Positions 7,501 to 37,199 of a stretch of DNA of 64,000 nt are shown here, one piece after another. The DNA comes from Schmidtea polychroa (Eukaryota): NCBI GenBank assembly GCA_044892525.1, contig CM097885.1, forward strand, positions 34,102,001-34,166,000. Reading direction: 5' to 3'. The notes beneath the pieces were generated by a model. That model was not told the DNA's origin. It saw nothing but the letters and a program-made list of their open reading frames with translations, and searched no databases. A program made the translations under genes and the position numbers. How positions within the stretch are numbered: the first letter of the stretch is position 1; every line of letters starts with the position of its first letter.

Positions 7501-10500
7501 TATTCCTATTTTTAAATATCACACTTTTCTTCTCCCATCCGAAATATATTAATTTGTAATGTATTTTCATCTATCTCAATTTTAATCATTTAAACATTAA
7601 TATTTTAGTTGATTATTTCTGGTCGTCCAAAGAGATTCTGAAATTACAACTTATAAAGTCAAGTATAAAATGAAAAATAAAAGAATAAGTTAATACATCA
7701 AACAGTTCAAAGTAAATGTAAAAGATGTTTGAATAAACAAAATAAAATCCATACCGAAAACTTATGTCAGATTGAGCAAATAGATTAAATTATTAAGTAA
7801 ACTAGACTCAATTAACTTATGCACTATCTTTAAACCTTAAATGATTCAGTTTTCTCCAAAAAAGAATTTAAAATAAAATATAATGAACATTTGATACAAA
7901 GTTTCATAAGAAATTTTGTTTAAACTCAATAAACAAAAATAATGTTATGAAATAATAAAATAATATTTAATAGTATTGGGATTAATAATAAAAATTATTA
8001 TTTCACAATTTATTAATAATTATTAAATAGTAATTTTAAGACTTAAAAATCAAAATTAGAAATTTATCAGAAAATGTGTCAAATAATGCAAATTAATTAT
8101 CTTACAATATTTCACAAGAGTGAAAAAGTACTTTAAAAAAATTATATCACCCGTCAGCAAGTCTCTTTTGTATGACCTGTCTAAAGAACAATAAAGTTCT
8201 AATAAAACTAAAAAAGTGATCATCCTAACTCTTTCACCTAGGTCCATTTTCTTTACTTTCATCTATGAATTTACCAATAACTGAACCCAATTGTCTTGAA
8301 AAAATGGATGATCTGTAGGATAATTTGATGTATCCAAAAGATTGTCATTAACAATATAATATATCTAATCAGTAATAATATATCAGTAATAATATATCTA
8401 ATCTGATATTTTTACATACCAAAAAGAAGGAATCAGTATATCGTCGGTTTAAAAGCAGAAATCACTAAGTCAAAAATCAACTTAGGAATTTCTGATTGTA
8501 TTATAATAGCACGATTGATTTAGTGCAATAAATGTCCGCCTAAAAACCTCAACAATATCAATTTACGACTTATAAGATTTTGCCCATATAAAGTTGGCAT
8601 TATAATGATTTAATTTAGTACAAAAAATCAAAATCTTGGAAAATGTACTTAGTGAATTTTGCTTGTAAACCAACGATATCCTTTTTACAATTAAAATTTG
8701 GCCTATATTTAGCTAATTTCTGATATTGTAAATGGTACATCTGGAGTTTCGATAAATTCAAAACTGTTTGACCAATATAGTTCGATCTGTTCAAACAAAT
8801 AGAGTCTGTGCTTAATGTTACAAGTCATTTACTTCAATTTAACTTATTGATTATAATTTTTCCCTAATAACTTTTAATTTAAATCAATTTTTTTTGAAAA
8901 TTAACATTTTACTATTAAAAACTAACTCATTCAACTTAATCAAGTATTTGTTCAAAATTTGTTACACTAGGTTAAATATTAAAATCTTATTTTCAATAAA
9001 TTTAAATTACTGATTTGACGTTTTGTGTAATGATCATGGTCAAAGAAATAAATGTAGGAACCATTTGATTTCAAATTGATATTGATATGACTGGTATTTA
9101 TCCTAAGGTTATCATAAAAGTTATCATAAACGATTTGAAAAGCACAAACGGAACATCAATAAAAGGTTAAATTATCCCACATTGATTTTAAAAAATGGGT
9201 CGTGTATAAAGAGAAAAATGATGAACAACATGACAAGATATTATTGTTGCAAATTACCTAGATTCTTCATATTTATCATTGCAGTCAGTCAACTCAATTC
9301 AAGCCTTCATTTATGTTGTAATAATTGTTCATGGTTTGTAATAATTAATTGATTGTCAATGCACTTTGACAGTTTAGATATTTATTGATTAAAAAACTCA
9401 ATGAGTCAGTAACTGTCGACTATTAATTTTAATGAAATACCCACCAAAACGAATGATATAAAAATTATATATACCCAACCCAAACAGCCCTCCCAACAAA
9501 AACATACCTCCATTACGCTTAAACCATTAGAAAAACAACATAAAACCTATGTTTTTATAGTATTTTAACCCCATATTTTAAACAACAACCACCCTTAATC
9601 TTTAAAGCCTCAAACTCAAAAGCTTCAAACTAAAAAGAGAATAGAAAAGAAAATGGCATTATGAAAAAGTTAGAGGGCTATTTGGGATAGGGCTATATAC
9701 ACACTACTTTTGATCGCAATCAAACTCCGGAGTTGATCTTTATCAGATTATTGATTTTAAATTATATAAATTAAAAAATAAATGAAAAATAGTAAAACTG
9801 CTCTGAGAGGACAGTGGTATTTTTTTTTTTTTATCACTGTCCCCTTTAACAGTTTTTTTGATCCGGATCATTTTTTTATTTATCAACCTCTTTCGTTTAT
9901 CAAATCTCTTCTAATATACAAGCTGGCCAGACTCATACATCAGAATCAATCCGATAATAGCAGCACACCTTATTATTCGCTTCTCACTCGAATACGATTT
10001 CATCGGCGTTTTAAGTGTGCTGCTCGAAAGTACAAATGAATTCGAAAGCGAATTCGAAAGAGGTCCGAAAACAACTGAGAAATAAATGTGCACATTAAAG
10101 AATCGATCCGGGGGTGTTCGAAAGACAGGTGGCGATAATTACGGGTTCGCCACCATCACCCGTTTCAATAATTTTTTTTTCATATTTATGTTTAAAAAAT
10201 AAAATAAAATAAAATAAATAAAATAAATAAAATAAAATAAAAATAAATAAAATATACAACTACTTTATAAATCTAAGATACCCACACTATTATTTTCAAA
10301 TTTTTAATATTATTTTATGTTGAAAAAAAACTAACCACAGTTTGGATTTGAACCACCATCCATTTGAACCACTGTGCCAGTCTAGCCCACTGCGCTATCT
10401 AGGATTGGATTTTTGTCATTTTTTTAATTTTTAATTTATAAAAAAATAAAATAAAATAAAATAAATAAAATAAAATATACAAGTACTTTATAAATATAAG

Positions 10501-13500
10501 ATACCCACACTATTTTCAATATTATTTTCAAATTTTTAATATTATTTTATGTTGAAAAAAAAACTAACCTCAGATGTGATTTGAACCGCTAGCATTTTGA
10601 ACCACTGTGTCAGTCTAGCCCACTGCGCCATCAAGGTTTGGATTTTTTGTCATTTTTTAAATTTTTATTATAAAAAATGAATAATATAAATCTTAAAAAA
10701 TAAAATGAAAACAGGGTATCCAATAAAAAATTTTTTTCTAAAAATGAATTGTAATATTTGCAATAAAGTTTTTAAAAATAAAACTGGATTAATTTCTCAC
10801 TTAAAATCGAAAGCTCATTTATTAAAAGAAAATAATCTTAATGATACAAATTCAAAAGTTTGTCCTAAATGTAAAGGAAGATTTCTACATTCTGGATATA
10901 ATAAACATTTTGAAAATTGTATCGGGAAAAATAGAGAAATATTTACATGTTCTCACTGTAACTTTTCAACAAAAGTAAATTTCTATTATTTAGAACATAT
11001 AAAAAAATGTAAAAATAAAAAACAAAATTCTGACGATGAGGAATGTCATTCAGAAGGAGAACCTGATCATGTTGAAAGAGAAAAATATAACTGGGATAAT
11101 TTTAATCATATAGATGAATTTCAATTAAAAATTAATGGACCTGCAACTCCTGGAGAATATATAAATAAAAATAAAAAAAATATTAAAAATTCTTTCACTG
11201 AAGCTTTAAAAAATTATAAACCGACAAGGTATAATGTTATAAAATATAAAATTATAATCAAAGCAAAATACTGGCGAGGAGCAGAAGAAAAGACAACACC
11301 CTTAGATGTTGAAATTGGAATACCTTTTAAATATTTATTTTCAATTAAAGGATTTGATAAAACCATCAAAGAAATAATTAAAGCAGCAGAAGCAAAACAA
11401 GAGGAAGTAGAAAATGAATTAGGAGATTCAAACTTAGTATTCAACTCTTTCCAAACTTTAGTGATTGATTATTGGAGAGGATTACCACCCAATCCTAAAT
11501 CTTATATTCCTACACCCTTTAAATCTAAAAATGTTATAAATGTACAGAATAATGATAACAAATGTTTCATCTGGTCAATACTTGCACATTTACATCCTCA
11601 AGCAACAAATCCCCAAAGAGTTTCAAAATACAAACAATATGAAAATGAATTAATATTTCCCAAAGGATTCAAACACCCAATGAAACTAGAAGACATTCCA
11701 GAATTTGAAAAATTAAATAATCTTAAACTTAATATTTATGAACATGTTATAGGGAAAGAAATTATTCCAATTTATATTTCAGATAGTGGAACCAAGGATA
11801 ACGGAGCACAGGACAACGAGATATATCTTTTAATCTTGGAACAAGAAAATAATCAACATTATGTTTTAATAAAAAACTTTCAAGCTTTTACATCTCCAGA
11901 GAATCCAACTAGTGGAGGAGGAACATGTAAAAGATGTCTTTATTATTCAACAACTAAAAACTCTATGATTAAACATACAAGATTTTGTGAAAAAGATGAT
12001 CCAGCTTTAATTAAAATGCCTAATAGTCCCAAGATGTATTTTAAAAACTTTTCAAATTTACTACAAACAGTTGGAGTTCTTTATGGTGACTTTGAATCTA
12101 TAAACCATAAACAAGATTTGGTTTATCAATATTTAAAAATAATAGAAAAAAATAAACTCATGGATTTATGGAACTCCTCAGGAGAGAAGATGAAACCAGA
12201 GAGGATGAAAGCCTTTCTAAGAAAAAGAAATAAACCTAATAGTGTTAAAAAAACTAAACAATTACCATCTGCTTATAAATTATTATTTAAAAGTAATTAT
12301 CCTGAACTCATAGAATCTAGAGAATATTCAATTCTAGGAGGTACCCCTGAAGAAGTCTTGAATCATTTTACTAAAAATATAAATGATCTAGAACATGAAA
12401 TATTTAAAATATTAAAAACAAAGTATCCTCAAAATATTTCTAATCAACAACAACAAGAATATGAAAATACTTCCAACTGTTGGATGTGTAAACAGAATAT
12501 TCTTCCTGATGAAAAAGTTATAGATCATGATCATTTAAAAAAGGAAAATAATTATCGAGGAGCAGCTCATAAAAATTGCAATCTTAATTGCCATACTCCT
12601 AAATTTATACCTGTTATATTTCATAATCTTTTTGGATATGACATACATCTATTTATTAAACATTTAGCAGCAAATGCTAAAAACTCTTTCAAAGTTATCG
12701 GCTTAACAAAGGAAAAATATAAATCAATTGAATATGGAAAATTAAAATTTATAGACTCGTTAAACTTTCTCCAAATGTCTTTAGATGCAGTAGCAAAAAC
12801 AATGAAACCAGAAAATTTTAAAATCACTCGAGAATTCTTGGAAAAAAATAATATTCCTCTAGAAGAATATCCTACATGTTTAGCAAAAGGAATATATCCT
12901 TATGACTATGTTGACTCGTTTGAAAGATATAATGAAACAAGTCTTCCTAGCCAAGAAGATTTCTATTCACAACTTCAAAAAAATCATATTACAAATCAAG
13001 AATATTCTCGAGCAAATAAAATGTGGGAATTATTCAAGTGTAAAACTTTAGGAGAATATACAAGTATGTATTTATCCTTGGATGTTTATATTCTAGCAGA
13101 TTGCTTTGAAGAATTTACAAACTCTTTTGTTCTTAAACCTTATAATTATATAACTGCACCCTCTTTAGCTTGGGATACTATGTTATATACCATTTGGACT
13201 TCAAATATAGAAGATGCTGATAAAATTATAGATCTTTTAACTAACCTCGATATGTTTAACCAAATTAAAACAAACATTAGAGGAGGAGTCTCTTCAGTAA
13301 TGGGGAATAGAGAAATAAAAGCTAGAAATGCAATAACTACTAGCCGAAGACTATCTAAACACCCTGATGATCCATATATGAAAATTAACAATGAGGAATT
13401 AAAAGAATTATTAGAAACAATGAAAAATCCTATATTTATACTTTATATAGATGCAACAGCTTTATATTCAGGAATTATGACTCAATATTTACCAATGAGT

Positions 13501-16500
13501 GATTTCACTGAAATAGAGAACCCAACAGATGACCTTATGAAAGAAATACTTTCAACATCGAAAGATTCTCCAATAGGTTACTTTATAGAGTGCGACCTCG
13601 ACTATCCAGATGATATAAAATCAGGAACAAGATATTTTCCTTTAGCTCCCATAAGAAGAAAGATTGATATCAACGAACTTTCTGAATGGCAAATCTCACA
13701 AGATAAACCTCCAACAATGAAACTTCTTTGTGATCAAACAGATCGAAGGTTTTTTCTTTGTCACTATAGACTCCTCCAATTTTATCTCTCACGAGGAATG
13801 ATATTAAAAAAAGTTCATAGTGTCATAAGATTTAAACAAGCTCCATTCATGAAAGCTTTTATCGAGGAGAACATTAGGTGTCGAAACATTGCAAAAAGAG
13901 AAGGTAATCTTTTTAAAGATAATAATTATAAAATTTTAAACAATTCAGTCTTTGGGAAGACAATGGAGAATGTTGATAAATATACTCATATTGAACTCCT
14001 AACTAATACTGCCAAAGATATTAAGCGTTATAATCGTATGCTAGGAAAGCCTACATTTAAAAACGCACAAGTATTTTCTGAAAATCTTACTGCAGTAGAA
14101 TTAAAAAATTATGAGAAAACATATAACAAACCAATATTTATAGGGTTTACAATTTTAGAACTTTCAAAATTACAAATGTATGAAACATATTATAACATCT
14201 TACAACCTATATACGGAGCAAATATATCAATGCATGCAATGGATACAGATTCAATGTTTTTAACAATAAGAACTCATGATTTACAAAAAGATATGAAAGA
14301 AAATCCTATACTTTCAAATTTAATAAATTCATCTGGAGAACTATTTTCGTTTAAAGATGAAAAACCTTTTACTCCTATAGAAAATGGAATATTTATTCGT
14401 GCTAAACAATATTCATACGAAACATTTAGAAACCCTGAATTTATAACTAGATCATTTATATTTAAAACTCCAGAAACAGAAGAAACCATTACACATAGAT
14501 ATCCTATATTTCCTAAAGAAGAAAAACCCGTAAAGGATAACAGATGTAAAGGAATACAGAAATCAGTTGCAAAGAATCTTTCTCATCAAGATTATATAGA
14601 TACATTGAATCCAAATCATAAAGATAAAATTGATGAAATACATCAACTTAAAAGTGAAAACCATGATATTCACTTGATAGAATCTCAAAAAGTATCATTA
14701 TCAAATTATGATGATAAGAGATTCATCCTAAGTGATTTAAAGACAACTCTTCCTATAGGAAATAATTTAATACCGATAATAAAAAATCTAGAAAAGTTGA
14801 ATAAGTTATATGATACAAAGATTACTGATCTTGATATTTATAATGTTGAAATTATTTATCCCGAGAGAGAAATCGAGAAACCTTTATATTCTCAAGTTTT
14901 TAATCCTATATGTTTAGAACTTAAATATTTTAATACTGATCCTGAATATATAAAAGGTCTAAGTGATAAAGAATTTAAAGATCATAAATTAATGATTCAT
15001 AGGTTGGCTTTCAACCATAACTGAAACCAACGATATTTAATTTTTTAATAATAAAATGTCGACAATTAATTTAAGCAACTATAGCAACCTGATCTACTTT
15101 TTTAAAAATACACCCATTTTATAAGTAAGAATTCTTTAACCATTTTTCTCGAGATGTTTTTTTATTACTTATAACATTAGCCACCATGCCCTCCCTTTTT
15201 AATCTTATAACCTCATTCTTTATATCTTGTATTATTTGATTTTATTTCATTATTTCTTCGTCTGTCAGGATTCCATCTTCCAAAGCTTTTAATTTAAATA
15301 AAAATAATTTAGAGATTCCTAATTCTATTGATAAACAAACTTCTCTATATAAACTTTTCTTTTTAGAAGTATAAGATAATGAAACTATTTCAGTTAAGAA
15401 ACCATCAGCCACAGAAATACTTCCAAGTATTACAGGTGCAAGAGTAACAACTGGTAAAGTTATGGGTAAAATAACTGTTAATATTGCAGATGCAAATCCT
15501 AAAGAATAACCTATAACTTTTAAAACTGTATTCCCTTTATTCCATCTATTTTTAATTTTTTTATAATGCTTTAATAAATCTTGTAAATGTAAGGTTTCTG
15601 ATTTAAATTCTTTTACTCTCATAATTTCAAGTTCTGTGGGAGCCGAGGCCTTGGAACCTTTGTGACCTTCGGAATAATATCCTGATGATCTCAATTCTGG
15701 GTAAATTTTTTCTTGTCTTACTTCTTCCATTTTAATAATTAAAAAAATAAAACTTTATTCTTCTGAGCACCATCTGGCACCAATACTCGGATATCAAAAG
15801 AAACTCTTGTTGAGAGGATATCTTTATACAATTCTCTCAATGCTTTACGAACTTCATCAACATCAACCTTTTTTTCATAAAATATTAAATCTATATATTG
15901 TACAAGTGAACTAGAAAAATGAATATTCTTACTTTTAACTTTATGTAGTCCATGTGAATGAGTATTAACATACCAATCTCCGTGTGGTAAATCATAACTA
16001 GTCATTATAACATCACCCTTTTCAAGCTTACTATTATAATCACATTTCACAAACCATTTCATTCTTTCATTATCATCATCAAACAAAAAGAAATAAGGAT
16101 CAATAATTTTTACAACCATAAAAACACCCCATTCTTTACTGTTTGTTGTTATTAAACTTGGTTCTATAAAATGTTTATATGTATGGGGTAATAATGTTTT
16201 ATTCTGTTCTAATTCAGCAGCTCTTTTTCTAATACTATGTGTGGTGTTAATGTGTGTTCCATGAGACTCTAAATTTGAAATTCTTTTATTAAATGATGTA
16301 ATCATCTCATTTATTATTTTATATATTGTATTAAATTTAGTATTCATAATTTGTTTATCTTTAGAATTTAATATAGCAGTATTTAACTTTACAACTTGTT
16401 CAGTTAACAGACTTTGTAACTTGTCAAATTTATCATTAAATCGTTGTTCGATATTATTAAGCTTTGATTCCATTGAATCAATTTTTGTTGTTAATGAACT

Positions 16501-19500
16501 TTCAATTCTTGTTGTTGTTAAATCAGTATATTTTTTAACACCATCTACATATTTCTTATTAACTGCATCAGCTTCATCAGTTGGAAAAGATAATTCTTTT
16601 ATCTTGTGTCCATTTAAAATTAAATCACCCTTCATTGAATCACCTCTTTCATTAATATATTTATTTTCTGTTAAAGTTAATATTTCTTCTGTATTAAACC
16701 CTGTTTTTATTGTTCCACCACCTCTATTACATGGAATATAAGAACTCATTTATTAATAATTTAAAATGGACGGAGTCCCCTGAGAGGAACTAAACCTGTT
16801 TCAAATGTAAATACATTGAAATCTCTTCTCCATTAAAATCAATCAATTCTCCTTCTTGATTAAGAATTTTAAAATTAATATCCATTATATATTTTCTACA
16901 TAAAGGTAATTAATTTGGAGGATTCATTCTTTCAACTATTTTATATCCCATAGGAACTGTGTTTGAGGGAAAGGAATATAAAACATTTGTTTGTTTACCA
17001 TTATTATAAGAACCTGTTATACAATCGCAATGAATATTTATTGTGTTTGTATTTATTATTTTTATAATATGTTCTGATGTTATTATTTTATCTTCTTTTA
17101 TTGTTATATCCATAGGTTTAAATCCTAAAACTGTGTGAAAGAAACAATTATCTAAAAAACTAATTTTTATATTCTTCAAAGTCATTACACATTTTGAAGT
17201 TGGTATATCCATTTTAATTTTAATACCTTCATTTGTTTTTTTAGAAAGTATATCATTTAAATCTTTTATCTCATATGCCCCAGGTTCTATTGTTATAATT
17301 TCTGGTTTATGCCCATCACGAGTTTGAATAGTAAATTTATTATTATCTTTAGTTATATTAAAAATAGTATTATAAGCACAAAACCATAATAGCCCCAATT
17401 CATAATTTAAATTTTGATCTAATTTAATTGAATCTTGAAAGTTTATAGTAAAGTCTGATTCTTTTGAATTTATAGATAAAGTTCTTGAATATTTATCTGA
17501 CATTATGTTTACCATTTTTTTTAAATTATCTTCCGGAGGGTTGTGAAGCTCCATTTCTTTAGTAGTAAATTCATATAGTAAAAATCCTTATAGTAAAAAT
17601 CCTTATAGTAGAGATTCTAGATCATTATAAATTTCTTGAATTATAGATTCAAAATCCTGTGCATGCCCCTTTCCCTCTCCCTTATTCAATCTATACAAAA
17701 CATATAAACTTAAAATACCACATATTTTAGTATTCAAAGGTTGAACTTGTAAAGAGTTAAAAGTATAACCATTTGGGGAATCAATCGGAGAACCCCTCAA
17801 GAGATAATCTTCAACTTCTTTAGTAGGTTTAATCCCAAAAGAATCAAAGTAGATAGATTTCTTATATATACAAACCCAATGAGATCCTTTTTCATTTGAA
17901 TTTTGATAATTGATTATTATATTCAGGGGACTCTCCAGACTTGATAATTCATCATTCATTAATATTTTAATTTTTAAATTTAAATAATTTGCATAATCTT
18001 TTAAATCAAAATTTGTTTTTGCATTTATTCCAAATGTTTTTAAAAAATCTAATATTGAAGGAGTCATTTTGTATTTTAAAACTTCGTATTTATAACTTCG
18101 TATACTTATTAAATTTATCTTTTGAAATTATTCCTTGTTTTAACAAATCTTTAGAAATCTTTAAAATATCAGAATCTAAATTATTATGTCCTGCTTTCCT
18201 TGCAGCTAATAGTTTTCTTAATTCAATAAAAAGATTGATGGGATTTGGTTTACCACCTTCACTAATTAATCCCTCTCCCTCTGTAACAACATAACCCTTT
18301 TCATTTTTATTTAAATAATTCTTTAAATCTTGAATATATTTTGCTTTAGAACTAGCTCTTATTAATCTTATTAAATTTAAATATTTTTTAATTTCTTCAA
18401 CATCATCTGAAGAATATCCACAAAGTAATCTATAAAAATCATCTGTAAATTCAAAGTCTAAATATTCATTATTATAAACATTTTGTGAATGAATACGTGA
18501 TTTATTTTCTGAATTTGAATATAAAGTAAAGTTTTGTTTATTAATTGTTATTATTTGATATCCTTCAGTATTAGTATTAAATGTGGGTCTAATTGAAGGT
18601 AAATCATCTCTAATTTTAGGATCAACTTTAAGAGCTTTTGTTTTTAAAAACATTTCTTCTTCTTCCACATTAGAAATTCTTCTGCGTTTTCTTTGATTTC
18701 TTTCAGAATGACTTTCAGGATGGTTTTCACTGGATTCTTTTTCTTTATCCTGCCACTCTAGTTCTTTTATTTTTTGTTTTTTATCTTCTAACTCTTTAAA
18801 TTTTGCTTGCTCATTGAAATCTTCCAACTCTTTTATAGCTTTAATTGTTGGCCCCTGTTGTTGTGTTATTACCTCATTTAATATTATAGATTCAGCATGT
18901 TGAGTTGTATCTTTTTTATTATATTTATCTTGTTCTGATTGTAATTTTTTTAAAAGTGCTAATCTTTCTTCATATACCATTTTAATGGTATCAAAAATGG
19001 TATCATAGTTCGAAGGGCTTCAAGTATAATCCTTTACCATTTTTAGTTTTACAAAGGCATCCATTCTTTAAAGGTTTACATATTTTTTTTAAATCTTCTT
19101 TATCTTTTGAAGATAAAGATTCAGATGTAGAAATTTGATTTTTTAAAAAATCATTTAAACCTCTACCTTTATAAGGATCAAGATAGAGACCTTTGCCCTG
19201 AGACTTTTGCCGACTCCCCTCATATGGATTAAGATAGAGACCCTTTCCAACGGACACTCCCCCTTTAGCTTGCCCTACCTTCTTCATTGAATCGATTTCA
19301 GTTTGTAGTTTTTCTTTTTCTAGGTCTGTCTTTTGAGATTCTTTAGCTTTTTGAACTGTAGTTGCAATTCCTCCAGCTATTCCAGCAGCACCTGATAAAC
19401 CAGCAATGATTGCAGGTATTAAAGCAGCTAATGGAAGAATGCCACCTTCTTTAGCTTCGTGGAGCTTCGCTCTAACTTGTTCTTTTACATGTTTTCCAAT

Positions 19501-22500
19501 AAAATATTTTTTACCATCAATTACTACTGATTTATTTTTATTTGAATTTATTAATTCTTGCAAAGATTCTTCAGTTGTCATTTTATAATAAATAAAAATG
19601 GATACTTGGAAACCAATTTTAAATAGACATAAGAGTAAATTTAATAATAAAGTATTTCCTGATAATTTTAGATTATTAATTGTTGGTTCTTCTGGATGTG
19701 GAAAGAATGTACTTGTTTTGAGAATGTTACTTGAAGATGATTTTTTAGATTATAATAATTTAATCTTTTATTCTACGACCATAAATCAACCAGAATTACA
19801 ACTTTTGAAATGTGGATTTGAAAATAAATTAACTAAAAAAGCAATAATTGATATTTTTAAAAATCAACATAGGTGTCCTGAAGAAGTTTTTCAACCTTGT
19901 GATATGGTTGATTGGTATAAGGAAAAGATTTTAGAATCAGATATTAGTAATAAAAATGATTATATTTGTGAAGAAGGGCAGGAGGCAATTCAAGTTTTAT
20001 TCTCTAATAAACCTGAAGATGTTTTACATTGTGATTTACTTCCTAAAGATAAAAAGAATCTAGTTATATTTGATGATGTTGTTAATATGAAAAATCAAGA
20101 GATTCAAAAGAGTTACTTTACACGAGGTCGACATAATAATTGTAATGTTATTTATATATCTCAAACATATTATGCTTTAGATAAAAATTCAATAAGAAAT
20201 AATTCCAATTGTTTTATATTTTTTAAATTAGATCGCCGTGATAAGAATATGATTTATAATGATTTATTTTCAAATGTTGAACCTGATAAGAATATGTTTG
20301 ATATGTTTGTTGATAATCATTGGAAAGAAAAATATAATTATATTTATTTGGATAGAGAAGAAGCTGAAATATGGAAAAGTTTGTTTTAGGGCTTGTCGAC
20401 TTAAAAACCTGTTTTCTGTAGTTCATTATTATAAAATCTACCTAATATTTTTTCATTATTTAAATCAAAGATGCTATATGTTATTGGAGTTGTATAATGT
20501 ATTTTATTTATAATAAAAATTTCATTTGTCCATTTTGCTGTGAATCCTTTTTCAAATTTATTTTTATATTTAAATATTCTTACTCGGTCACCAATTTTAA
20601 ACTTTGGTTTTTCAATAACATCATTTTCAATATTTACCACTTTAATGGTTTCAGGCTTCATGGAAGCATTTAAAGGTGTTAATTTTATAGAACTATGTAC
20701 ATCATTATTATATTCATTTACAATCTTTTGTAACAATTCATTGTTCCATTTTTGTTTTCCAATAGCAGTAAAATATTTCCACATTTTATTTTTTAATGTT
20801 CTATTTAATCTTTCAACTACGACTGCTTTTCCTTCGTTTTCTGTTGAATATAATTTAATATCATTTTCATTTAAAAACTTTGTTATAAAATTCTGTTCCT
20901 TTATCACTCCATAAATATTTTGGAATTCTTTGATGTTCTTCAAATATATTTTCAAATGCTTCTGTAATGGAATATCCTGTTTTATTTTCTAAACACCTTG
21001 CAAAAGCAAATCTTGTATATAAATCTATTACAGTTAAAATTATTTTATATTTTTCAGGGTCTGATGATTTGGGCATAAAGACTAAATCTGCAGACCATGT
21101 TTGATCTTTTTCATGTACTTGAACTTTTAAATATTTTTTATTTTTTCTAAATTCATGGTGTAATTCCTTTGCATATTTTATTTCTGATTCTGTTGGGGTT
21201 TGTAAACTAGCCTTGGATATATTCTCAAGGGATCTTTCAATGTCTGCTTGTTCGATAATCTTTTAATAAGCAACATCTTTTGCTATTCTAGGAAGTCTTG
21301 CACCCATGGTGATCGGACTGTGTCCTAAGCCTATGAAAATTTTACCTTTCATTGCTAATTTAACTAGAGCTCTTTGAATCTTTTCTTGGGTTGATGGATT
21401 TTGGATACTATTTAAATCATGTATTAAATTCACATCTGCAACATGTCTATCTCTAAGATTTGTTGAATTGTATGCAATGTCATGTTTTAAAGCTGCTTGA
21501 TCAATTCTATTTATTGGTTCTTCTCCTTGTTTGGGATTATTATTTTCATCTAATCTAATATCTAATCTTGTTCCTGGTCCGGTGTAGTTGTGTTTAAATA
21601 AATGTCTTTCACCTGGATATTTTTCTGTAGTAAAAGGTTTTAATATTGAAGATGTTGTTTTTGAAGATTGTAGAGCGCCTCCTGTATGTTTTTTAGTTTT
21701 TAAATGACTTGCTTTATGATGTCTTGTAACTTGACAATTACAAGTTTCACATCTCCAATAGGGTTTATTTAAAGACATTTTAAAATGTTAAAATATCAGG
21801 GATTATATCAAGAATCTCCCCTAACATTTTCGATTATTGAAATCTTTCCACCATATAATTTCATTTCTATTTTCTTTTCTTCTAATATTAATGTATATAC
21901 TTTAGCTTTAAAATTAGAATCCTTTGTTACATGAAGTGTAACATCAACATTATTTATAGCTAGACGATCATCTTGATCTGATACATTTATACAAAATATA
22001 GAATATAAATTTTTGAAATCTTCTAAACTTAATTGCGGTTCAACTTTGAAATCATAACATGTTTCAATATAATTTAGATATGGGAATATGTTTTCATTAT
22101 TTTCAATATTAAATTCCATTCTATTTATTGGATAATAAGAACTATTTAATTGAATTTGGATTGTTTTTAAATTATCATCTCCAATCTTTTGAATAAATAG
22201 ATTGTTATTTTTTTGGAAAGATGAATCTGTTTCTTTAAATCCAATCAAGATATATCTTGGTCGGTATGCTAAATTTGCTACCTTTATAGAATATGTTGAA
22301 CCCTCTGTCATACTAAATTCACTACAGATTCTATTTAAATAATTTACATTTATAGACTTGTTGGAATTTAATCTTTCAAGGAGTTTAATCTCAGAATGTG
22401 GGTTTAATGTCCATTCAGGTATATGTAATTCAAGTGTTGATAATTTTAATTTAGCTTTTGTATCAACAGCTCCATAGAACAATCTTTTATCACCTTCTAC

Positions 22501-25500
22501 TCTATTACAGATGAATTCTATAAAAACATTATGAAGTATACAATTATAGTTTTGAAGGAATCCAAACAAGTGTTTTAATTCAAAATAACCTTCAAATTTT
22601 TTAGATTTATAAAGTTCAGCTCTTTTATGGTAACCATGGTTTACATCTAAACCATCTTTATCTAAATCCCCTTTATTAACATCAGGAATCCAACCTGTTA
22701 ATTCACCATATTCGTTTTTATAATCACAACCAGTCAAAATAAAATTTAACATTGTAGAATATACTCCCGGATGCAAAACAGTTTCAATTTCTGATGATCC
22801 TAGTTTTAATCTCATGTTGGAGAATAAATTTGGAAAGAAATTATTTTCTAGGGTTATATCTTTGTTTGCTTCAATTTCTAATTCGATTTTATAATATAAT
22901 TTGGCATTACAAATATCTATAGGGTTTGATGTTTGAAGAGATTGAAAAACTATATCACCCCTACGATTTAAGTTTGCAATAGATCCTGAAGTTGGGGAGA
23001 TTTTAAGTACATCGTTTTTCTTGATTTCGTGAGTAAATTCTTTATTATAATCAAGATTTAATTTATTTTTTTCTTGAATTTTAAGATTTATATTATTCAT
23101 TTTTATATATTAAAATTTACACACACAAAATAGGATTAATTAAATATATTATGTAAGCCATTATAGCGGAGTGGGAATAGGCTTCAATTTTATCACCGGG
23201 AGTACCGGGTTCAATTTTCGATTTTGGTCAATTTTTTTCGATATTTTTTTTCAACGGAATCTGATTTTAGTATATATTTAAATTTTCAGATGGATCTGAG
23301 TGGTAGTTGTCGAGAAAATGAATAATTAATTATTAATTTCATCAATAAATAGTCACACATTAACAACTTACTTTATATTGAGTATAGCTCTAATAGCTTA
23401 GTGGTAATAGCACTCAACTGCATTGCCAATACCAATGGGTTCAAATCCCATTTCGGTCATTTTTTTTCAAATATTTTTTTTAACGAAATATTGATCAGCA
23501 TACTCGATTTAGTACTTGTACAAATTTTTAAGGAGATTGGTCAACGGCAACTCTTGGAAATTTAAGATCAAAAACGTTTTAACTACCAAAAATTAATATA
23601 TCCAATAAAAAAATATTTATAAAAATGGATGAGTTAAAAGAAAGAATGAGAAATGAATTGAATGAAGTTAAACATAAGAGAATGAAAAGAAGAGAAGAAG
23701 AACCATTAGAATACATCAAAGAGTTGATGGTAGATAATGAAAAGTATCGACATTTTTATATGAAGGTTGTAGATGTTGCTGATATAAGATTGAAGAAAAT
23801 GAAACAATTACAGGAAAGAGTTAAAGAACTTGAATCGATTATTTATAGTCTAAAAAATGACAAAAATTCAAACCTTGATGGCGCAGTGGGAATAGACTGG
23901 CACAGTGGTTCAAATGGATAGTGGTTCAAATCACATCTGAGGTTAGTTTTTTTTCAACATAAAATAATATTAAAAATTTGAAAATAATATTGAAAATAGT
24001 GTGGGTATCTTATATTTATAAAGTACTTGTATATTTTATTTTATTTATTTTATTTTATTTTATTTTTTTATTAATTAATTATTTTTTAAACATAAATATG
24101 AAAAAAAAAATATTGAAACGGGTGATGGTGGCGAACCCGTAATTATCGCCACCTGTCTTTCGAACACCCCCGGATCGATCCCGGTAATGTGCACATTTAT
24201 TTCTCGGTTGTTTTCGGACCTCTTTCGGATTCGCTTTCGAATTCATTTGTACTTTCGAGCAGCACACTTAAAACGCCGATGAAATCGTATTCGAGCGAGA
24301 AGCGAATAATAAGGTGTGCTGCTATTATCGAATTGATTCTGATGTATGAGTCTGGCCAGCTTGTATATTGGAAGAGATTTGATAAACGAAAGAGGTTGAT
24401 AAATAAAAAAATGATCCGGATCAAAAAAACTGTTAAAGGGGACAGTGATAAAAAAAAAAAAAATACCACTGTCCTCTCAGAGCAGTTTTACTATTTTTCA
24501 TTTATTTTTTAATTTATATAATTTAAAATCAATAATCTGATAAAGATCAACTCCGGAGTTTGATTGCGATCAAAAGTAGTGTGTATATAGCCCTATCCCA
24601 AATAGCCCTCTAACTTTTTCATAATGCCATTTTCTTTTCTATTCTCTTTTTAGTTTGAAGCTTTTGAGTTTGAGGCTTTAAAGATTAAGGGTGGTTGTTG
24701 TTTAAAATATGGGGTTAAAATACTATAAAAACATAGGTTTTATGTTGTTTTTCTAATGGTTTAAGCGTAATGGAGGTATGTTTTTGTTGGGAGGGCTGTT
24801 TGGGTTGGGTATATATACACACTACTGTCGTGTATAAAGAGAAAAATGATGAACAACATGACAAGATATTATTGTTGCAAATTACCTAGATTCTTCATAT
24901 TTATCATTGCAGTCAGTCAACTCAATTCAAGCCTTCATTTATGTTGTAATAATTGTTCATGGTTTGTAATAATTAATTGATTGTCAATGCACTTTGACAG
25001 TTTAGATATTTATTGATTAAAAAACTCAATGAGTCAGTAACTGTCGACTATTAATTTTAATGAAATACCCACCAAAACGAATGATATAAAAATTAAATTT
25101 AAACATTATTTGCAGAAACTAATTTTGATAAAACCAATTTGTTTATAAATGTTTTTTATCTCTTCCATCGAGCAAAATCAATATTTCCTTAAGAATTTAT
25201 CAAAAATTTAATAATTTCATGTGTTGTCTGATCTGTGTTACGGTGCAAATTATTTGACAGTTGTCTTGAACTTTTGGAATTTCAAATATTATTCTTGGGA
25301 AATTAATCATTGAAATTCCAGAAGTCTGAATCAACAAATTTGACTATATATATATATATATATACATACATTATTTTTACTAGAAATATTGTAATATAAA
25401 TATTTTTATAACAACAATATTATATCAAATAATAATTCTAAATAAAGAAAGGAAACTTTAATAAGTATTTGAAATTGTAAAATATTCATTAATTTCCGAA

Positions 25501-28500
25501 TAACTCTTTAAAATTAATTTTGTTTAAACCAATCAACACATACTTTCTAATATTCATTGTAAGAATTTAAAATATTTTGACATTTATTATATCCAATTTT
25601 ACTTTTAAGTTAATCTCTAAAGAAAATATAAATGTTTTAATCCAGTATTCCCCAAACATACAACCCATGTGTATCTTTTTCACATATTTTTTAACACTTC
25701 CTACCTATTAAAAGAAAATTTCTTGGATATACTATTAAAAAACTACTAATACTTTTTCCCATATGAGGTTAAGAAATAAAAAATTCTTAAATTTTGATTT
25801 TAGGGAAAATATTCTTTATAAGAGTTACTGATTGACTTTAAACACCTAAAACAATCTTCAAATAAATTTTCATCGAATTTTTAAAATAAAATATTGATTA
25901 TTTAAAAATTTTATAAGAAAATATTGCAGTTTCTTAAAAACAAATTTAATCATGTTAGTTTTGATAAACTATAAACAAAACATGAAAATTATTTTTTATA
26001 ATATAATGCAAATCTGTTTATTATAATTAAATGAATTAATCATTAATTATTAATGAGATCATAGTATGCATATAGCTAATGGTTTTAATGATCGGTGCTT
26101 GAATATAAAGAAAAGAATAAAATAAAATTTTTTAATCAAGAATAATGAAACGGATGATGTTGTTTATGTCCGGATTAAATTACTTTATTATTTGGTTCCT
26201 GATCTAATTTTAATCTTAGATGTGGCTCTACATTGAGTATTCTATTTCTATTTTTGTGATAATATAAACGAAAGTGGAAAAGGCAAATTCTCACAGATAG
26301 GAAGTTGGGAAAAGTAATATGAATTTCAGAACATTTTCAATTAATATAGGTTAAACATTTAATACTTCTGACCAAAATGACGCTAATCTATGTTCTGTAT
26401 ATCTATCTTTCAAGAATCCATATGAGGATAATTTTAACAATTGTTCTAATCCAATTTCATAAACCTCCTGACATGCATGTTGAAGCAATATTAAATGAAT
26501 ATCCTATACATTCAGCATTTTTCTCCAATCCAGGCAAATAATGCTATAGATTTAATTGTGATTTAATATAAATGCTATTTAATATTTCCCACATTTTCAC
26601 ATGAATACAACTGCCTGAATTTATCTGTAATTCATCAAGGAAAGATTTGAATTCTCCATTAATAACTCTTCAATGGCACAAATTTAATTTTTCTATCATA
26701 GCTTATACTTTATCTTGAACGTGAAACATTGAAACGTTTTTACCTTATAATGGCAAATTAAGACTGTTCAAGACAGAAAATATATCAACTAAATAGACTA
26801 ATTTATTTTATCCTTTCCAATCACGTAAATAGTATAGGCACTTTTTCAATTCTCCTCGAAGTTCAAACAATCGATTTAAAGTTTTCCTCTTGTTAGGCAA
26901 CGAGCATTTGTATGGCCGAGAAGTTAAATATGGATACTTCCCATTTCTTCACACATTTCTAAAAAATGTCTTAATATAATTAAAATTTTTTATTACTTTC
27001 ATCCAAAAACGTTTTTTAAATCTGGTGACGTACTACATGTTGCCAAAATGTTTTAAAATGTTTTCTTAGCAGATTCTTAAGAAGCGCAAAGTGACTCAAA
27101 GTCATTAAATTGATCATTTCATGCTTGTCGGTTGGAATCATATTCCTGTAGTTTTTCAGATGTAAGTGATTCAGTTTTTACCCAACAATTCATTTCTAGG
27201 ATCGATAAAATAATGTTAAAATTACAAAAACGATACACTAATCATAATTTTGAATAAAAATTAATGGAAAAAAACAATAATAGTGTAAGGAGTTAGTAAA
27301 CCTCTATATAACATTATTATGGTTAAATGGTAGAAGTGAGATCAGTTAGTAGAAATAATTATTTCTGTTAAATTTGTATATTTAAATTCTATATTAAATT
27401 ATATCATATTATATTAAATTATATTAAATTAAATCAATTAAATGTATGACCAGTAATTACATTAATATTAATAATTATCACGCCTCGGTGTTTAAATATT
27501 CTAGTAAACGGCACAATTTTTGAAGTTGTTATAAAAATAAATGCTTGAAGAAGACTTGAATTTAATTGCGTCTAACATGGCGACCACGACCACGGATTTA
27601 TTGATAAGCAGACTATTACCTGAGAAATTTCACAAAGGCGATGATTTAGAAAATTTTATCAAGGATTGTCAAAGGTTTTTTGGCGCGACAAAAACAACAA
27701 TTAGGATGCAAGTAATATTAACTACAACATTACTTGACAGATCGCTAATGGAAGATTATGAAGCAGCCGAAGGAAAAACTATGGAAGAGAAACTTCGATA
27801 TGCATTTTCAAAACCGACATCATTAATGGATGATCTAAAAGAAGCTTTGAGTTATGAACAAGGATCAGATTCAGCCGAAACTTTTATAGAGAAAATTAAA
27901 AAGATTACAAAGAAATTAATAGCGCACAAATGGGATGAAGAAGAAATAGAAAAATGCCTGCTTACAAACTGTGTAAGAGATCGAGAAGTTAAAAAAGAGA
28001 TCGAGATGAAAGATTTGAAAACAGTAGTATGATTGGAGCTCCCCCGGCCAGGAGCTCCCCCGGCCACATATACCCCCTCCCCCCCCCCCAAGAAAAAAAA
28101 ATTTTTTTTTAATTTTTTGTTTTAATTAATTGGCCGGGCGGGCTCACACTTTTTTTCATCCCAAAAATTAATGTTCCTGCCAACAGATTTTATTGACCGA
28201 TACCTCATCTTAAAGCTCAGTCCAAGACCTTTCGAATGAGCTATAGGTATCATATATATCTTTAATAGTTTTAATGTTATTAACAATTGATGACCACCAT
28301 CTTTTCAACGTTAAATTATTATTATTTTCCAAAATATTATTAATTGGCCGGGCGGGCTCACACTTTTTTTTCATCCCAAAAATAATGTTCCCACCAACAG
28401 ATTTTATTGACCGATACCTCATCTTAAAGCTCAGTCCAAGACCTTTCGAATGAGCCATAGAAGGTATCATCATCATTATTATTAACAAAGAGATTGACTC

Positions 28501-29127
28501 ACCCAATGACTCACCCAACGATGTCTAATATTTTTAGAACGATGCCAAATATTTTTAGAATGGTGCCTAATATTTTTAGAACGATTACATCATACTTTTA
28601 GAACGATGCCTCTTATTTTAGAACGATGTCTAATATTTTAGAACGATGCCTATTATTTTTAGAATGATTACGTCATATTTTTAGAATGATGCCTAATATT
28701 TTTAGAACGATGCCTATTATTTTTAGAACGATTACATCATACTTTTAGAACGATGCCTAATATTTTTAGAATGATGCCTAATATTTTTAGAATGATGTCT
28801 ATTATTTTTAGAACGATTACGTCATAATTTTAGAACGATGCCTAATATTTTTAGAATGATGCCTAATATTTTTAGAACGATTACGTCATACTTTTAGAAC
28901 GATGCCTAATATTTTTAGAATGATGTCTATTATTTTTAGAACGATTACGTCATAATTTTAGAACGATGCCTAATATTTTTAGAATGATGCCTAATATTTT
29001 TAGAACGATTACGTCATACTTTTAGAACGATGCCTAATATTTTTAGAATGATACCTAATATTTTTAGAACTAATAATCTTTGTTTTAATTATCGATTACA
29101 TATTAATTTAATTTGTTTAAATCGTTG

Positions 29128-29166
<39 letters not shown>

Positions 29167-32100
29167 ATTAGTCAAAAACCTAAAATAATTTTTACACACT
29201 AAGTTATGGGGAGAGAATTATTATATGTTTGCAGTATTCTGTGTTTGCCTTTACAGGAAGTTGTCAATAAGGAGCGATAATTTTATATACACATACCTTG
29301 TTTAACATGGGTGTATATACTCCTAGTCTATCCGACAAAATATTCTGTCCCCCTATGGGTACTGCTCACAAAATTACTGGTAAAAATATTCAAGACAAAA
29401 CTTTCTAAATTCTAAATATTATTCTTTAAATATACACTAAAATTTATTAACACATTCACATTCATCATCTCCACAGTTCATAACATTTTCAACAACATGA
29501 TCTATACAATCCCTATATACACACGGTTCAGTATCCGTAAATTCCTCCATAGGTTCATCAATTTCTTGAATGCTTTCCTCATCATCTTGAGTGTTTTCTT
29601 CATCTGTTTCATCAAATTCCGAATCTTCACTCTCTGCTACCCAGTCTATATTTAATGCGTTTGTAACAGATAATATATCCGCCATTTTCACACCAGATAT
29701 TTCTGCTAATTTTTCCAATAAAAAGTTTATTATAAATTCTAAATATTAAATAATTCGATAATTAACTAATCATATTAACCTTTTTCTGTAGTCATTATTA
29801 GTATTTTAAAACTATAGTATATATTTGTTTATAGAAAATATAGAATATAAGCGAAAACAAATATGACTAAATACATTTATTAAATACAACATTAAAATAA
29901 CTGTGAAAGTCTAGCAGACATAATTTTCCAAATTGGAGAATACACATCATTATTATCAACTTTATATCCTTGGATTGTAATTGTTATATACCAATTTTCG
30001 TTTTCTTTGAAACTGATTTCATCAAAGGAATCATAAAATTTTGCATATCGGTTGTTGAAAAATGCATTTTGATTGCATGATAGATTCGTATTCAACCTTT
30101 TGAAAACATCATCTATGGTTTTAATATCTAACATTGAAAGCGTGCCGGTTAAGAATTGAAATTGGGTAGGAATTAGCTTGATCGGTGACACCAATTTCAT
30201 ATTGATTTCTTCTTTTAAAAAATACATTTTGTAGTTGTGGAACATTTGAACAGGTTGTACAAGTTCTGGAACTACTTTTGGTTTTTCAGTGCTTGAAATT
30301 TTCTTGGTCATTGTGAATTATGATTAAAATGAAATGGTACAGGGTTTTTATACCTATGACTATTGTTTATCATCCAATCAGATTGCAGTATGTTTTTGTT
30401 TTAATTGAATGATAAATAATTAATTAAGTGATAATAAAAAATCTAAAAATTCTTTTCCTTCAATTATTGATTTAATTTCAGATATGATATTATCAACTAT
30501 ACTTTTGTAATCAATATTTTTTATTCCAAGAATTACTATCTTACCGCTAGCGAATATATTTACACACATAGGGTTATATTTTATATATCTCAAAGCTGGA
30601 AATAATTCTGGTTCATAAAAGCATGGTATTAATTTAGCTAATTTATTTAAATTACAAGAAAAACCTATATCGGAAGTTACGGTTATCGATTGTATTTCTA
30701 AATCATAAACATTATATTCACTAGCTTTGATTATTTCCTTACACCCCATAATTCTACATTTACCAGTTTTGAAATATATTATTGGATATTTATTACTTCT
30801 ATTGATAAGTTGTTGTGGTTTCCCTATTGGAAATACCATTTTTGATACATCAGTTTTTGCCCTGTAATTTATATTTGAAAGCATTTTAATGAAATAATTT
30901 TAAAAACTTTGATATATATAGGTATTTAAAAACAGAGTTCATTTAAATTATCAATATAAACAATAATTATATAGTTTAAATTTAAAAAATGGAATTACGA
31001 AATGATGCAGTATACCAAATCGTTGGTCCAAGTGGTAGCGGGAAAACTTTATTTGTTTGTAAATTACTAAAATCAAATTTGTTTAAAACAAAATTCAACA
31101 ATATTTATTGGCATAGGGGCGCCGACGAAGAACACGGATTGACGCAATCAAGTTTCTGTCAGTTGAAAAACATGAAAATAGTAAAGGTCTTTGATAAAAA
31201 CTGGTCAAGTCGTTTGAAGAAAGATGATGTCATCATTATCGATGATTTGTATCAAGAAGCCAATAAAGAAAAGGACTTTAATAATTTATTCACAAAAATC
31301 AGCAGACATGTTGGTGTAACAGTTATTTTCATAACACAAAATCTATTTCATCAAGGTGGTGCACATCGAACACGTAATTTAAATGTACAATATTTAGTTA
31401 TTTTCAAGAATCCTAGAGATGCAACTGTCATTGATTTTCTTGGACGACAAGCATACCCTAATAACCGTAATTTTCTTATCAGTGCATTTCAAGATGCCAC
31501 GAAAATACCGCATGGGTATATATTTCTCGATTTCACACAACAATGCCCTGATGATATACGGGTAAAAACGGATATTTTCAACCCAAAAGGTGCCATGGTA
31601 TATAAACAAAGTTCAAAACAAAGTTGAAAACATATAAATCATGTTTTCAAAAACAAGGATATCGGGTAAAAAACAACCAAAAGTTCCACCAACAACTAGT
31701 TATACTCCATCTAAAGAACTTATTACAGAAAATTTTCCTGCAATGAATCTTATTTCGAAAAATCCTAAACCAAAAAGTAAAACCACTAAGAAAGTAAAAG
31801 TTGTTAAAAATCATCGGAGTTTCCCGTTTTTCAATACATTGTTAAAGGCACCAAGTATGAAAAGAAACAGTATTTTGCAATCATTTCCAAATTATGTTGT
31901 CGATGATTTACTCGATATTATACTTAAAGTAGTCAAAGGCAAGATTAAAATCAGTAAATCTAAAAAGCAATTATTGAGTAAACATAGGAAACCTTTGCTA
32001 TCATTAGTAAATAATAAAAATCGTCAACAAATGAGAAAAATTATATATAAACAACAAGGGGGATTTATCGGTGCATTGATACCTTTAGCAATATCATTAT

Positions 32101-37157: not shown

Positions 37158-37199
<42 letters not shown>

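What the first reader, a model, noticed from the sequence alone, without database searches (positions are those of the whole stretch)
24575..24826. Each TIR begins with a 252-bp mini-element bounded by its own inverted termini
Seen: AGTAGTGTGTATATAGCCCTATCCCAAATAGCCCTC at 24575 is an inverted, slightly diverged copy of the true terminus (GAGGGCTGTTTGGGTTGGGTATATATACACACTACT, ending 24826). The mirror module ends at 9708. Just inside lie short palindromes TTTGAT-CGCA-ATCAAA and AACTCCGGAGTT. Inference: each end has two opposed origin/integrase sites. It could fold into a terminal panhandle, flip, or be mobilised alone as a tiny MITE-like Polinton derivative.
Basis: partly seen in the sequence, partly recalled or inferred. 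Interest (0 to 1): 0.7.

Follow-up and report, generated by a model that had tools for sequence, protein, structure and literature searches.

The report
Fold-back palindromes at Polinton ends
The tips of this virus-like jumping element, and of three unrelated relatives, carry a mirror-image copy of their own last bases so that each DNA end can fold back on itself; this looks like a built-in end structure for copying the element, not a tiny transposon of its own.

Summary
The right end of a 15.4-kb Polinton/Maverick (9466-24826) has an inverted copy of its terminus 216 bp inside (31/36 identical, first 15 exact); the left end has the same module minus its first 9 bases. It is better read as a decayed terminal palindrome than as a mini-element. 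The same flush geometry occurs in three unrelated Polintons (129, 150 and 174 bp; 19-28 exact base pairs at the tip), one of them a 68/69-bp stem with a perfect 6-bp target duplication at the outer ends. None of 5 modules has its own target duplication, contig depth shows no excess of the module, and both two-ended elements are unflipped. It was found in 4 of 18 candidate elements, so it is optional. Most likely role (about 0.4): the 3' end of a displaced strand folds back and rebuilds a duplex origin locally for protein-primed replication. Rivals: a neutral copy-back product, or parvovirus-like self-priming. Shorter terminal palindromes were reported in 2026 for protist virophages and PLVs, mostly without pPolB; I found no report for pPolB Mavericks. 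Solo and flipped copies could not be counted: no host genome or raw reads.

The parts
24575..24826 (.). Right terminal palindrome (252 bp): inner arm, ~140-180-nt poorly paired centre, outer arm ending at the element's last base
24575..24610 (+). Inner arm: inverted copy of the terminus, reads outward; 31/36, first 15 exact; traceable to about 24631
24791..24826 (-). Outer arm = true right terminus with the (AGT)2 end motif
   Evidence: motif as described in PMC8097293 section 7
9466..9708 (.). Left terminal palindrome, same orientation as the right one, first 9 bases absent (243 bp)
9673..9708 (-). Left inner arm
9466..10424 (+). Left TIR (outer 367 bp identical to the right TIR, 95% overall)
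23852..24826 (-). Right TIR
24549..24574 (.). 12-bp palindrome and 6-bp-stem hairpin abutting the inner arm; hairpin not above chance
9199..9467 (+). Left copy of a 269-bp host duplication (last 2 bases shared with the truncated left end)
24827..25095 (+). Right copy of the 269-bp host duplication
   Evidence: contigs of X14 and X15 start exactly at 24827
10705..15024 (+). Protein-primed DNA polymerase B, open frame of 1439 aa, weak endonuclease-VII-like insert
   Evidence: PF03175 E 1.2e-11; PF02945 18.5 bits, below its cut-off of 23.6
19598..20389 (+). Packaging ATPase
   Evidence: PF04665 E 9.7e-9
20401..21262 (-). Retroviral-type integrase region, reading frame interrupted near 20,880
   Evidence: three-frame translation; family named by eye from recalled motifs; the 127-aa end piece had no Pfam hit
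21263..21778 (-). Phospholipase-A2-like ORF
   Evidence: PF08398 E 1.3e-9
21808..23100 (-). Double jelly-roll major capsid protein
   Evidence: PF21738 E 1.4e-25

Best explanation
Shown: the 252 bp are a terminal palindrome built into the TIR of a Polinton family, one member of a series that recurs in unrelated Polintons, always flush with the last base (about 0.85 that this description, not a MITE, is right). Inferred: it probably arose by fold-back copying at the origin and was copied to both ends by TIR homogenisation. Inferred function: in strand-displacement replication the 3' end of a displaced single strand folds onto the inner arm and so rebuilds a short double-stranded origin locally, a built-in panhandle, on which the terminal protein and pPolB can initiate without waiting for the two ends 15 kb apart to pair. 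The integrase keeps using the outer end; the module is neither flipped nor moved alone.
For: Same geometry in L103 (150 bp, 21 exact), L154 (129 bp, 19 exact) and L404 (174 bp, 28 exact, 68/69 stem) with unrelated sequence beyond the end motif. Clean separation from background: 3 of 444 end-motif sites scored 19-21 (two are the same L154 module), the other 441 scored 10 or less; 4 of 321 in further loci, all L404. Pairing is exact at the tip and decays inward in the window, L103 and L154. In L103 a second tandem copy of the inner arm has 4 mismatches in the 21 tip bases where the first has none. L420, a relative of L404, shows five changes shared by both arms against three arm-specific ones (read by eye). 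Eight mismatches can pair as G-T on the strand that carries the 3' end, none on the other strand (21 others). pPolB frames are open in the window, L154 and L404; L404 has a perfect 6-bp duplication at its outer ends and the same orientation at both ends. The three pPolBs do not form one side of a branch in a quick tree (3 changes, at least 2 forced).
Against: No functional test. 14 of 18 candidate elements lack it, among them 2 of the 4 with both ends in hand, so it is dispensable. Deletions that remove the inner tip exist in the family at low depth (24547 to 24599; depth 805 in X14, 364 in X15). In X1 and X3 the module bins fall to 0.09-0.20 of the TIR body: other subfamilies have different or no such ends. 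Matched arms, an exact tip and shared changes are also what template-switch correction of an imperfect palindrome gives without selection (recalled). The G-T bias is post hoc and the arms are A+C-rich. L154 and L404 were found by scanning for flush matches, which biases towards exact tips. A flush 3'-OH should also invite plain self-priming. The tree is a quick one with long branches; test_one_clade was not run.
Confidence: 0.4

Rival explanations
1. Neutral by-product. Copy-back or template switching at the origin occasionally duplicates the tip in reverse; repeated switching keeps the arms matched, TIR homogenisation spreads it, and it has no role.
For: Patchy presence (4 of 18); all stages of decay from 68/69 to 31/36; deletion variants without the inner tip; a polymerase running off the 5' end gives a flush join by itself (inference).
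Against: Kept at roughly the depth of the terminus in a very abundant family; 8:0 strand bias of G-T-compatible mismatches; the commonest module deletion shown (24592 to 24753, depth 7501 in X14) spares the 15 exact tip pairs.
Confidence: 0.28
2. Parvovirus-like self-priming. The folded 3'-OH is extended directly; the closed end is later nicked and copied, which inverts the module (flip/flop). This is the model proposed for protist virophages and PLVs.
For: The geometry is that of a hairpin primer, with the TIR continuing inside the palindrome; L404's 174-nt near-perfect palindrome with an asymmetric centre; precedent in bioRxiv 10.64898/2026.07.28.741278 section 7.
Against: Both two-ended elements have the same orientation at both ends; no strand-change joint among the 15 of 85 shown; no Rep/HUH nickase family among the 12 ORFs scanned; pPolB and the (AGT)2 motif are retained; the preprint links palindromes mainly to non-pPolB elements.
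Confidence: 0.17
3. One reading: a small element with its own inverted ends (MITE-like, or the remnant of one Polinton end inserted into another) that sits at the tips and can move or be cut out alone.
For: Two perfect-tipped inverted ends 129-252 bp apart are formally an integrase substrate; an integrase join would also be flush (inference). One single-copy joint from 24826 to 24702, kind not given, shows that the tip takes part in local rearrangements (table 5c).
Against: 0 of 5 modules have a flanking 6-bp duplication; no depth excess in 4 of 4 runs; arms match far beyond a short TIR in L404 and L154; no solo copy in the window or in five searched genome bins for the L154 and L404 modules (these bins hold little host DNA).
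Confidence: 0.08
4. Excision signal: in the integrated copy each palindrome extrudes a cruciform whose base is the host junction, and a junction-cutting nuclease, perhaps the endonuclease-VII-like insert of pPolB, frees the element with hairpin ends.
For: The stem base coincides with the junction; PF02945 passes its cut-off in L154 pPolB and is weak in the window's; the damaged left junction shows that a break was repaired at this tip.
Against: No such hit in L404 pPolB, the best palindrome; many pPolB relatives carry PF02945 while most ends lack the palindrome; these inserts are read as homing-endonuclease invasions in bioRxiv 10.1101/2024.03.18.585575 (passage); a 15-bp exact stem around a long loop is unlikely to extrude (inference).
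Confidence: 0.07

Closest known systems
Polintons/Mavericks (adintoviruses)
   Same: pPolB, packaging ATPase, double jelly-roll capsid, PLA2-like gene, ~1-kb TIRs, (AGT)2 end motif (PMC8097293 section 7). The standard model has the single strand form a racket by pairing of the two TIRs (PMC4196379 passages).
   Different: Each TIR tip is itself palindromic; this copy has an interrupted integrase frame, a left end short by 9 bases and a 269-bp flanking duplication.
Terminal palindromes of endogenous virophages and PLVs of Halocafeteria seosinensis (bioRxiv 10.64898/2026.07.28.741278; passages and section 7 read)
   Same: Palindrome inside the TIR, next to the target duplication; hairpin role proposed, untested; present in some subtypes only.
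   Different: There 52 nt in the example given, found with a loop limit of 10 nt, and mainly with non-pPolB replication genes. Here 129-252 nt, imperfect, some with long loops that such a screen would miss, in pPolB + integrase Mavericks, and the arm begins with the end motif itself.
Parvovirus/AAV terminal hairpins (recalled, not from a call)
   Same: 3' end folds back flush; the ITR extends inside the palindrome; asymmetric centre.
   Different: No Rep/NS1 nickase found, double-stranded integrating element, no flip seen in 2 elements.
Bidnaviruses (PMC4938981 passages) and adenovirus panhandle origins (recalled)
   Same: pPolB replicons whose single strands rebuild a duplex origin by ITR pairing.
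   Different: Bidnavirus ends explicitly lack terminal palindromes; here a duplex can form at each end alone.
MITEs / composite transposons with inside and outside ends (recalled)
   Same: Short unit bounded by inverted ends, repeated in inverse at both ends of a cargo.
   Different: No target duplication, solo copy or excess depth found.

Membership tests
Polinton/Maverick (host element) | Protein-primed DNA polymerase B | tested here: met
   PF03175 above cut-off
Polinton/Maverick (host element) | Packaging ATPase and double jelly-roll capsid | tested here: met
   PF04665, PF21738
Polinton/Maverick (host element) | Retroviral-type integrase | tested here: inconclusive
   Interrupted frame, recognised by eye; only the end piece was scanned, without a hit. 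L404 has an rve hit just under cut-off
Polinton/Maverick (host element) | TIRs with (AGT)2 end motif | tested here: met
   ~970-bp TIRs; motif whole at the right end, absent at the truncated left end
Polinton/Maverick (host element) | 6-bp target site duplication | tested here: not met
   269-bp duplication in this copy; met in L404. Read as damage to this insertion, so the copy is filed as a defective Polinton
MITE | Short unit with inverted ends | tested here: met
MITE | Own target site duplication | tested here: not met
   0 of 5 modules
MITE | Dispersed solo copies | tested here: inconclusive
   None in the window, no depth excess; host genome not held
Parvovirus-type terminal hairpin | 3' end folds back flush onto an inner arm | tested here: met
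   Predicted folds only
Parvovirus-type terminal hairpin | Flip/flop orientations | tested here: inconclusive
   0 of 2 two-ended elements; contig tables cut
Parvovirus-type terminal hairpin | Rep/NS1 HUH nickase | tested here: not met
   No such Pfam family among the 12 ORFs scanned, 7 of which had no hit at all
Halocafeteria-type terminal palindrome | Palindrome at the TIR tip next to the target duplication | tested here: met
   L404; right end of the window's element
Halocafeteria-type terminal palindrome | Arms of 20+ bp, at most 4 mismatches, loop at most 10 nt | tested here: not met
   Window: 5 mismatches in 36 and a ~180-nt spacer
Halocafeteria-type terminal palindrome | Preferential link to non-pPolB replication genes | tested here: not met
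   3 of 4 carriers have pPolB; L103 does not reach a polymerase gene

The most novel reading that the evidence does not exclude
A scattered subset of pPolB Polintons runs a hybrid replication mode: the palindromic tip lets a displaced or excised single strand prime itself or rebuild its origin alone, and unresolved fold-back products are a source of giant palindromic Polinton derivatives. Swapped-arm ends, or palindromic derivatives centred on the module, would be a sequence record of how Polintons copy themselves, readable in long reads.
Probability: 0.2. Interest if true: 0.8.

Novelty: new variant of a known kind. Interest (0 to 1): 0.55.

Why it matters
How Polintons leave the chromosome and replicate rests on a model from sequence (racket-shaped single strand, protein priming; PMC4196379 passages). 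Ends whose two arms differ at a few marked positions are a natural reporter: five positions in this family, one plus an asymmetric centre in L404, tell from sequence alone whether ends are copied by protein priming (no swap) or by hairpin transfer (swap). It also extends terminal palindromes from non-pPolB protist viruses to pPolB Mavericks, and warns annotators that a second end motif 130-250 bp inside a TIR is not a nested MITE or a second boundary.

Tried and rejected
No host genome is held, so the genome-wide count of solo and flipped modules was not possible. All 17 runs found are assembled contigs, none raw reads; 4 of 17 were laid, and the tables show 15 of 85 joints, 24 of 939 loose ends and 40 of 181 variant sites, so absence there proves little; summed contig depth is no copy number. 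The 15-base terminus in viral contigs gave 88 matches, none extending into the TIR. A 25-base pattern covering both arms found nothing in metagenome contigs; a 19-base one gave 1 match in a bacterial bin, not followed. Capsid, ATPase and single polymerase queries found no relatives in viral contigs nor, for the capsid, in genome contigs; none in phage records. L130 and L131 are Polintons whose termini could not be fixed. The end-motif site in L153/L177/L180 is internal, not a terminus. 15 of 24 loci offered for whole-record search were not held. The abutting small hairpin was rejected as chance. Literature: ten searches gave one paper on terminal palindromes; none found on pPolB Mavericks.

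Full report
Observation. The stretch 24575-24826 is as described. Its first 36 bases match the reverse complement of its last 36 at 31 positions, the first 15 without a mismatch. The match scores 47 where 300 shuffles reach at most 24, and the 252 bases fold with z = -5.8. The mirror copy ends at 9708. The left end lacks the first 9 bases present on the right, so the left module is 243 bp, and the element is flanked by an exact 269-bp direct repeat instead of a 6-bp one. Beyond base 36 the arms remain weakly in register to about base 57 (p = 0.03). The small hairpin next to the inner arm is no more than chance.

Host element. 9466-24826 is a Polinton/Maverick: pPolB, packaging ATPase, PLA2-like ORF and double jelly-roll capsid by Pfam, an integrase region with an interrupted frame near 20,880 (named by eye), and TIRs of about 970 bp whose outer 367 bp are identical. 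The (AGT)2 end motif is the common Maverick type (PMC8097293, section 7 read). The host is a eukaryote, called an animal in earlier notes of this scan (not checked); no genome is held.

Within the family. Contigs of 4 of 17 runs were laid on 22400-25400. Depth over the element is about a thousand times that of the flank or more, so the family is very abundant, although summed contig depth is no copy number. In X14 and X15 the bin with the inner arm has 0.82 and 0.92 of the depth of the terminal bin, so the inner copy is a family trait there. The module has 0.60, 0.57, 0.09 and 0.20 of the depth of the TIR body in X14, X15, X1 and X3: no excess as solo copies would give, and in X1 and X3 other subfamilies with other ends seem to dominate. 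The 15 joints shown (of 85) are all same-strand skips. One removes the centre but keeps the 15 exact tip pairs (24592 to 24753, depth 7501 in X14); one removes the inner tip (24547 to 24599, depth 805 in X14 and 364 in X15); one shortens the centre in X1 (24649 to 24715). A flip would be hard to see in such tables, so this is no test of flipping.

In other Polintons. I collected loci by capsid (37), ATPase (3) and polymerase profiles (76 and 30) and scanned them for inverted copies flush with an end motif. Of 444 motif sites (four duplicate loci and sites with under 300 bases downstream left out) three scored 19-21 and the rest 10 or less: L103, 15 bases from the start of a contig with capsid and ATPase genes (150 bp, 21 exact pairs), and L154, 280 bases before a pPolB start (129 bp, 19 exact pairs, counted from both sides). 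In 14 further stretches, 4 of 321 sites scored, all in L404: a whole 15.1-kb element with a perfect 6-bp duplication at its outer ends and a 174-bp palindrome at both tips, 68 of the first 69 pairs exact, in the same orientation at both ends. Predicted folds have z = -21.9 and -14.3 for L404 and L154. L420, a relative of L404, keeps the stem with five changes on both arms and three on one arm (by eye); its outer tip is not in the contig. Of 18 elements with a candidate terminus, 4 have the palindrome; of the 4 with both ends in hand, 2. This rate is rough: three entries were picked by hand, L154 and L404 entered because the scan found them, and some contig-end motifs may not be termini. The second Polinton of the window and L224, both with target duplications, have none. 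In a quick pPolB tree of 22 rows the three carriers need three changes, at least two forced by well-supported branches; branches are long and no clade test was run.

What it is. A series from near-perfect (L404) through moderately (L154, L103) to strongly decayed (this window) shows a terminal palindrome that belongs to the TIR. No module has a duplication of its own (0 of 5), and integration in L404 used the outer ends. The MITE reading is therefore unlikely, though a genome-wide count is missing.

How it may work. Shown: flush geometry, exact tip, concerted change of the arms, retention of pPolB and the end motif, no swap in 2 elements. Inferred: on a displaced single strand the 3' end pairs with the inner arm. 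I favour (0.4) that this rebuilds a short duplex origin locally for protein priming, because it explains an exact 15-28-bp tip (adenovirus core origins are of that size, recalled), needs no nicking enzyme and predicts no flips. In L103 a redundant second inner copy has decayed at the tip while the first has not, and 8 mismatches can pair as G-T on the 3'-end strand against none on the other (post hoc, and the arms are A+C-rich). Against any function: most Polintons lack the feature, variants without the inner tip exist, and template-switch correction alone can keep arms matched (0.28). Parvovirus-like self-priming with flips (0.17), a mobile mini-element (0.08) and cruciform excision (0.07) follow.

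Comparison with print. Terminal palindromes next to target duplications are described for endogenous virophages and PLVs of Halocafeteria seosinensis, 52 nt in the example, mainly with non-pPolB genes, with a hairpin-priming model and a call for a wider survey (bioRxiv 10.64898/2026.07.28.741278; passages and section 7). Its screen allowed loops of 10 nt at most and would miss this window's module. Bidnaviruses, pPolB relatives, lack terminal palindromes and form panhandles (PMC4938981, passages). Passages searched in PMC8097293, bioRxiv 2024.03.18.585575, bioRxiv 2026.10.13.758929, PMC11296320, PMC8363768 and bioRxiv 2025.02.07.637071 gave no description of such ends in pPolB Mavericks; PMC8502044 was seen as listing and part 1 of its supplement. 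Ten searches of an open-licence library are the basis for 'not found in print'. Earlier notes of this scan report perfect 50-nt tips in protist and chytrid viruses and giant palindromic Polinton derivatives in this genome; I did not test them and they are leads only.

The flanking duplication. The right junction is exact, the left end is short by 9 bases with 2 shared bases, and 269 host bases are doubled. Contigs of X14 and X15 begin exactly at 24827, as a real repeat boundary would cause, and a contig of X1 runs on for 663 bases past it into other sequence, probably the empty site (letters not seen). One-ended integration, or repair of a break at the left tip from an empty homologue, would give this (inference).

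Verdict. Real, recurrent, and a new variant of a known kind: long terminal palindromes in pPolB Polintons. Function is unproven, but the marked arms make the replication question countable in long reads. Interest 0.55.

Noticed in passing
window 9199-9467 and 24827-25095: Exact 269-bp host duplication around the element, with an exact right junction and a left end short by 9 bases; looks like one-ended integration or break repair.
   Followed up: partly
window 28023-38220: Second, unrelated Polinton with a 6-bp duplication, inserted in an LTR retrotransposon (294-bp direct repeats at 27284-27577 and 42211-42504); almost wholly palindromic, with 3.3-kb identical inverted arms around a 1.4-kb centre that holds an integrase-like ORF. 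No terminal palindrome of the kind studied.
   Followed up: partly
window 30420-30899 (-) and 35425-35904 (+): Duplicated 159-aa ORF in the second Polinton that looks TBP-like by eye; earlier notes of this scan describe such a gene. Not scanned.
   Followed up: no
window 10214-10710: About 230-bp tandem duplication of the inner part of the left TIR (84% alike); the second copy also matches the right TIR at 95%.
   Followed up: no
window 9466-10424 and 23852-24826: TIR identity falls from 100% in the outer 367 bp to about 95% overall, as homogenisation from the tips would give.
   Followed up: partly
window 24186, 24412, 24549: Three perfect 12-bp palindromes in the TIR body (0.4 expected), two sharing a TCCGGA core; possible sites of a dimeric protein.
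   Followed up: no
window 24826 and 24702: A joint between these places with 4 extra letters at single-copy depth in run X14; kind not given.
   Followed up: no
window 59708-60461 and 5191-5305: A 750-bp unit with 153-bp inverted arms (93%) and a related piece 55 kb away: a likely MITE; a 96-bp hairpin at 60632-60727.
   Followed up: no
L103:198-243: Second, decayed tandem copy of the inner arm about 77 bp after the first.
   Followed up: yes
L216:1-698 and 15456-16153: The end motif lies 386 bases inside the inverted repeat, so either the terminus is further out or flanking DNA is duplicated in inverse.
   Followed up: no
L132-L207, G005: Polinton-like polymerases on contigs inside prokaryotic genome bins: 76 loci kept from 102 matches; one 12-Mb bin has 93 matches. 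Probably misbinned eukaryotic DNA.
   Followed up: partly
L276-L397: Many bacterial contigs (Bacteroidota, cyanobacteria) hold 110-170-bp units bounded by inverted heptamer-type repeats that mimic the Polinton end motif.
   Followed up: no
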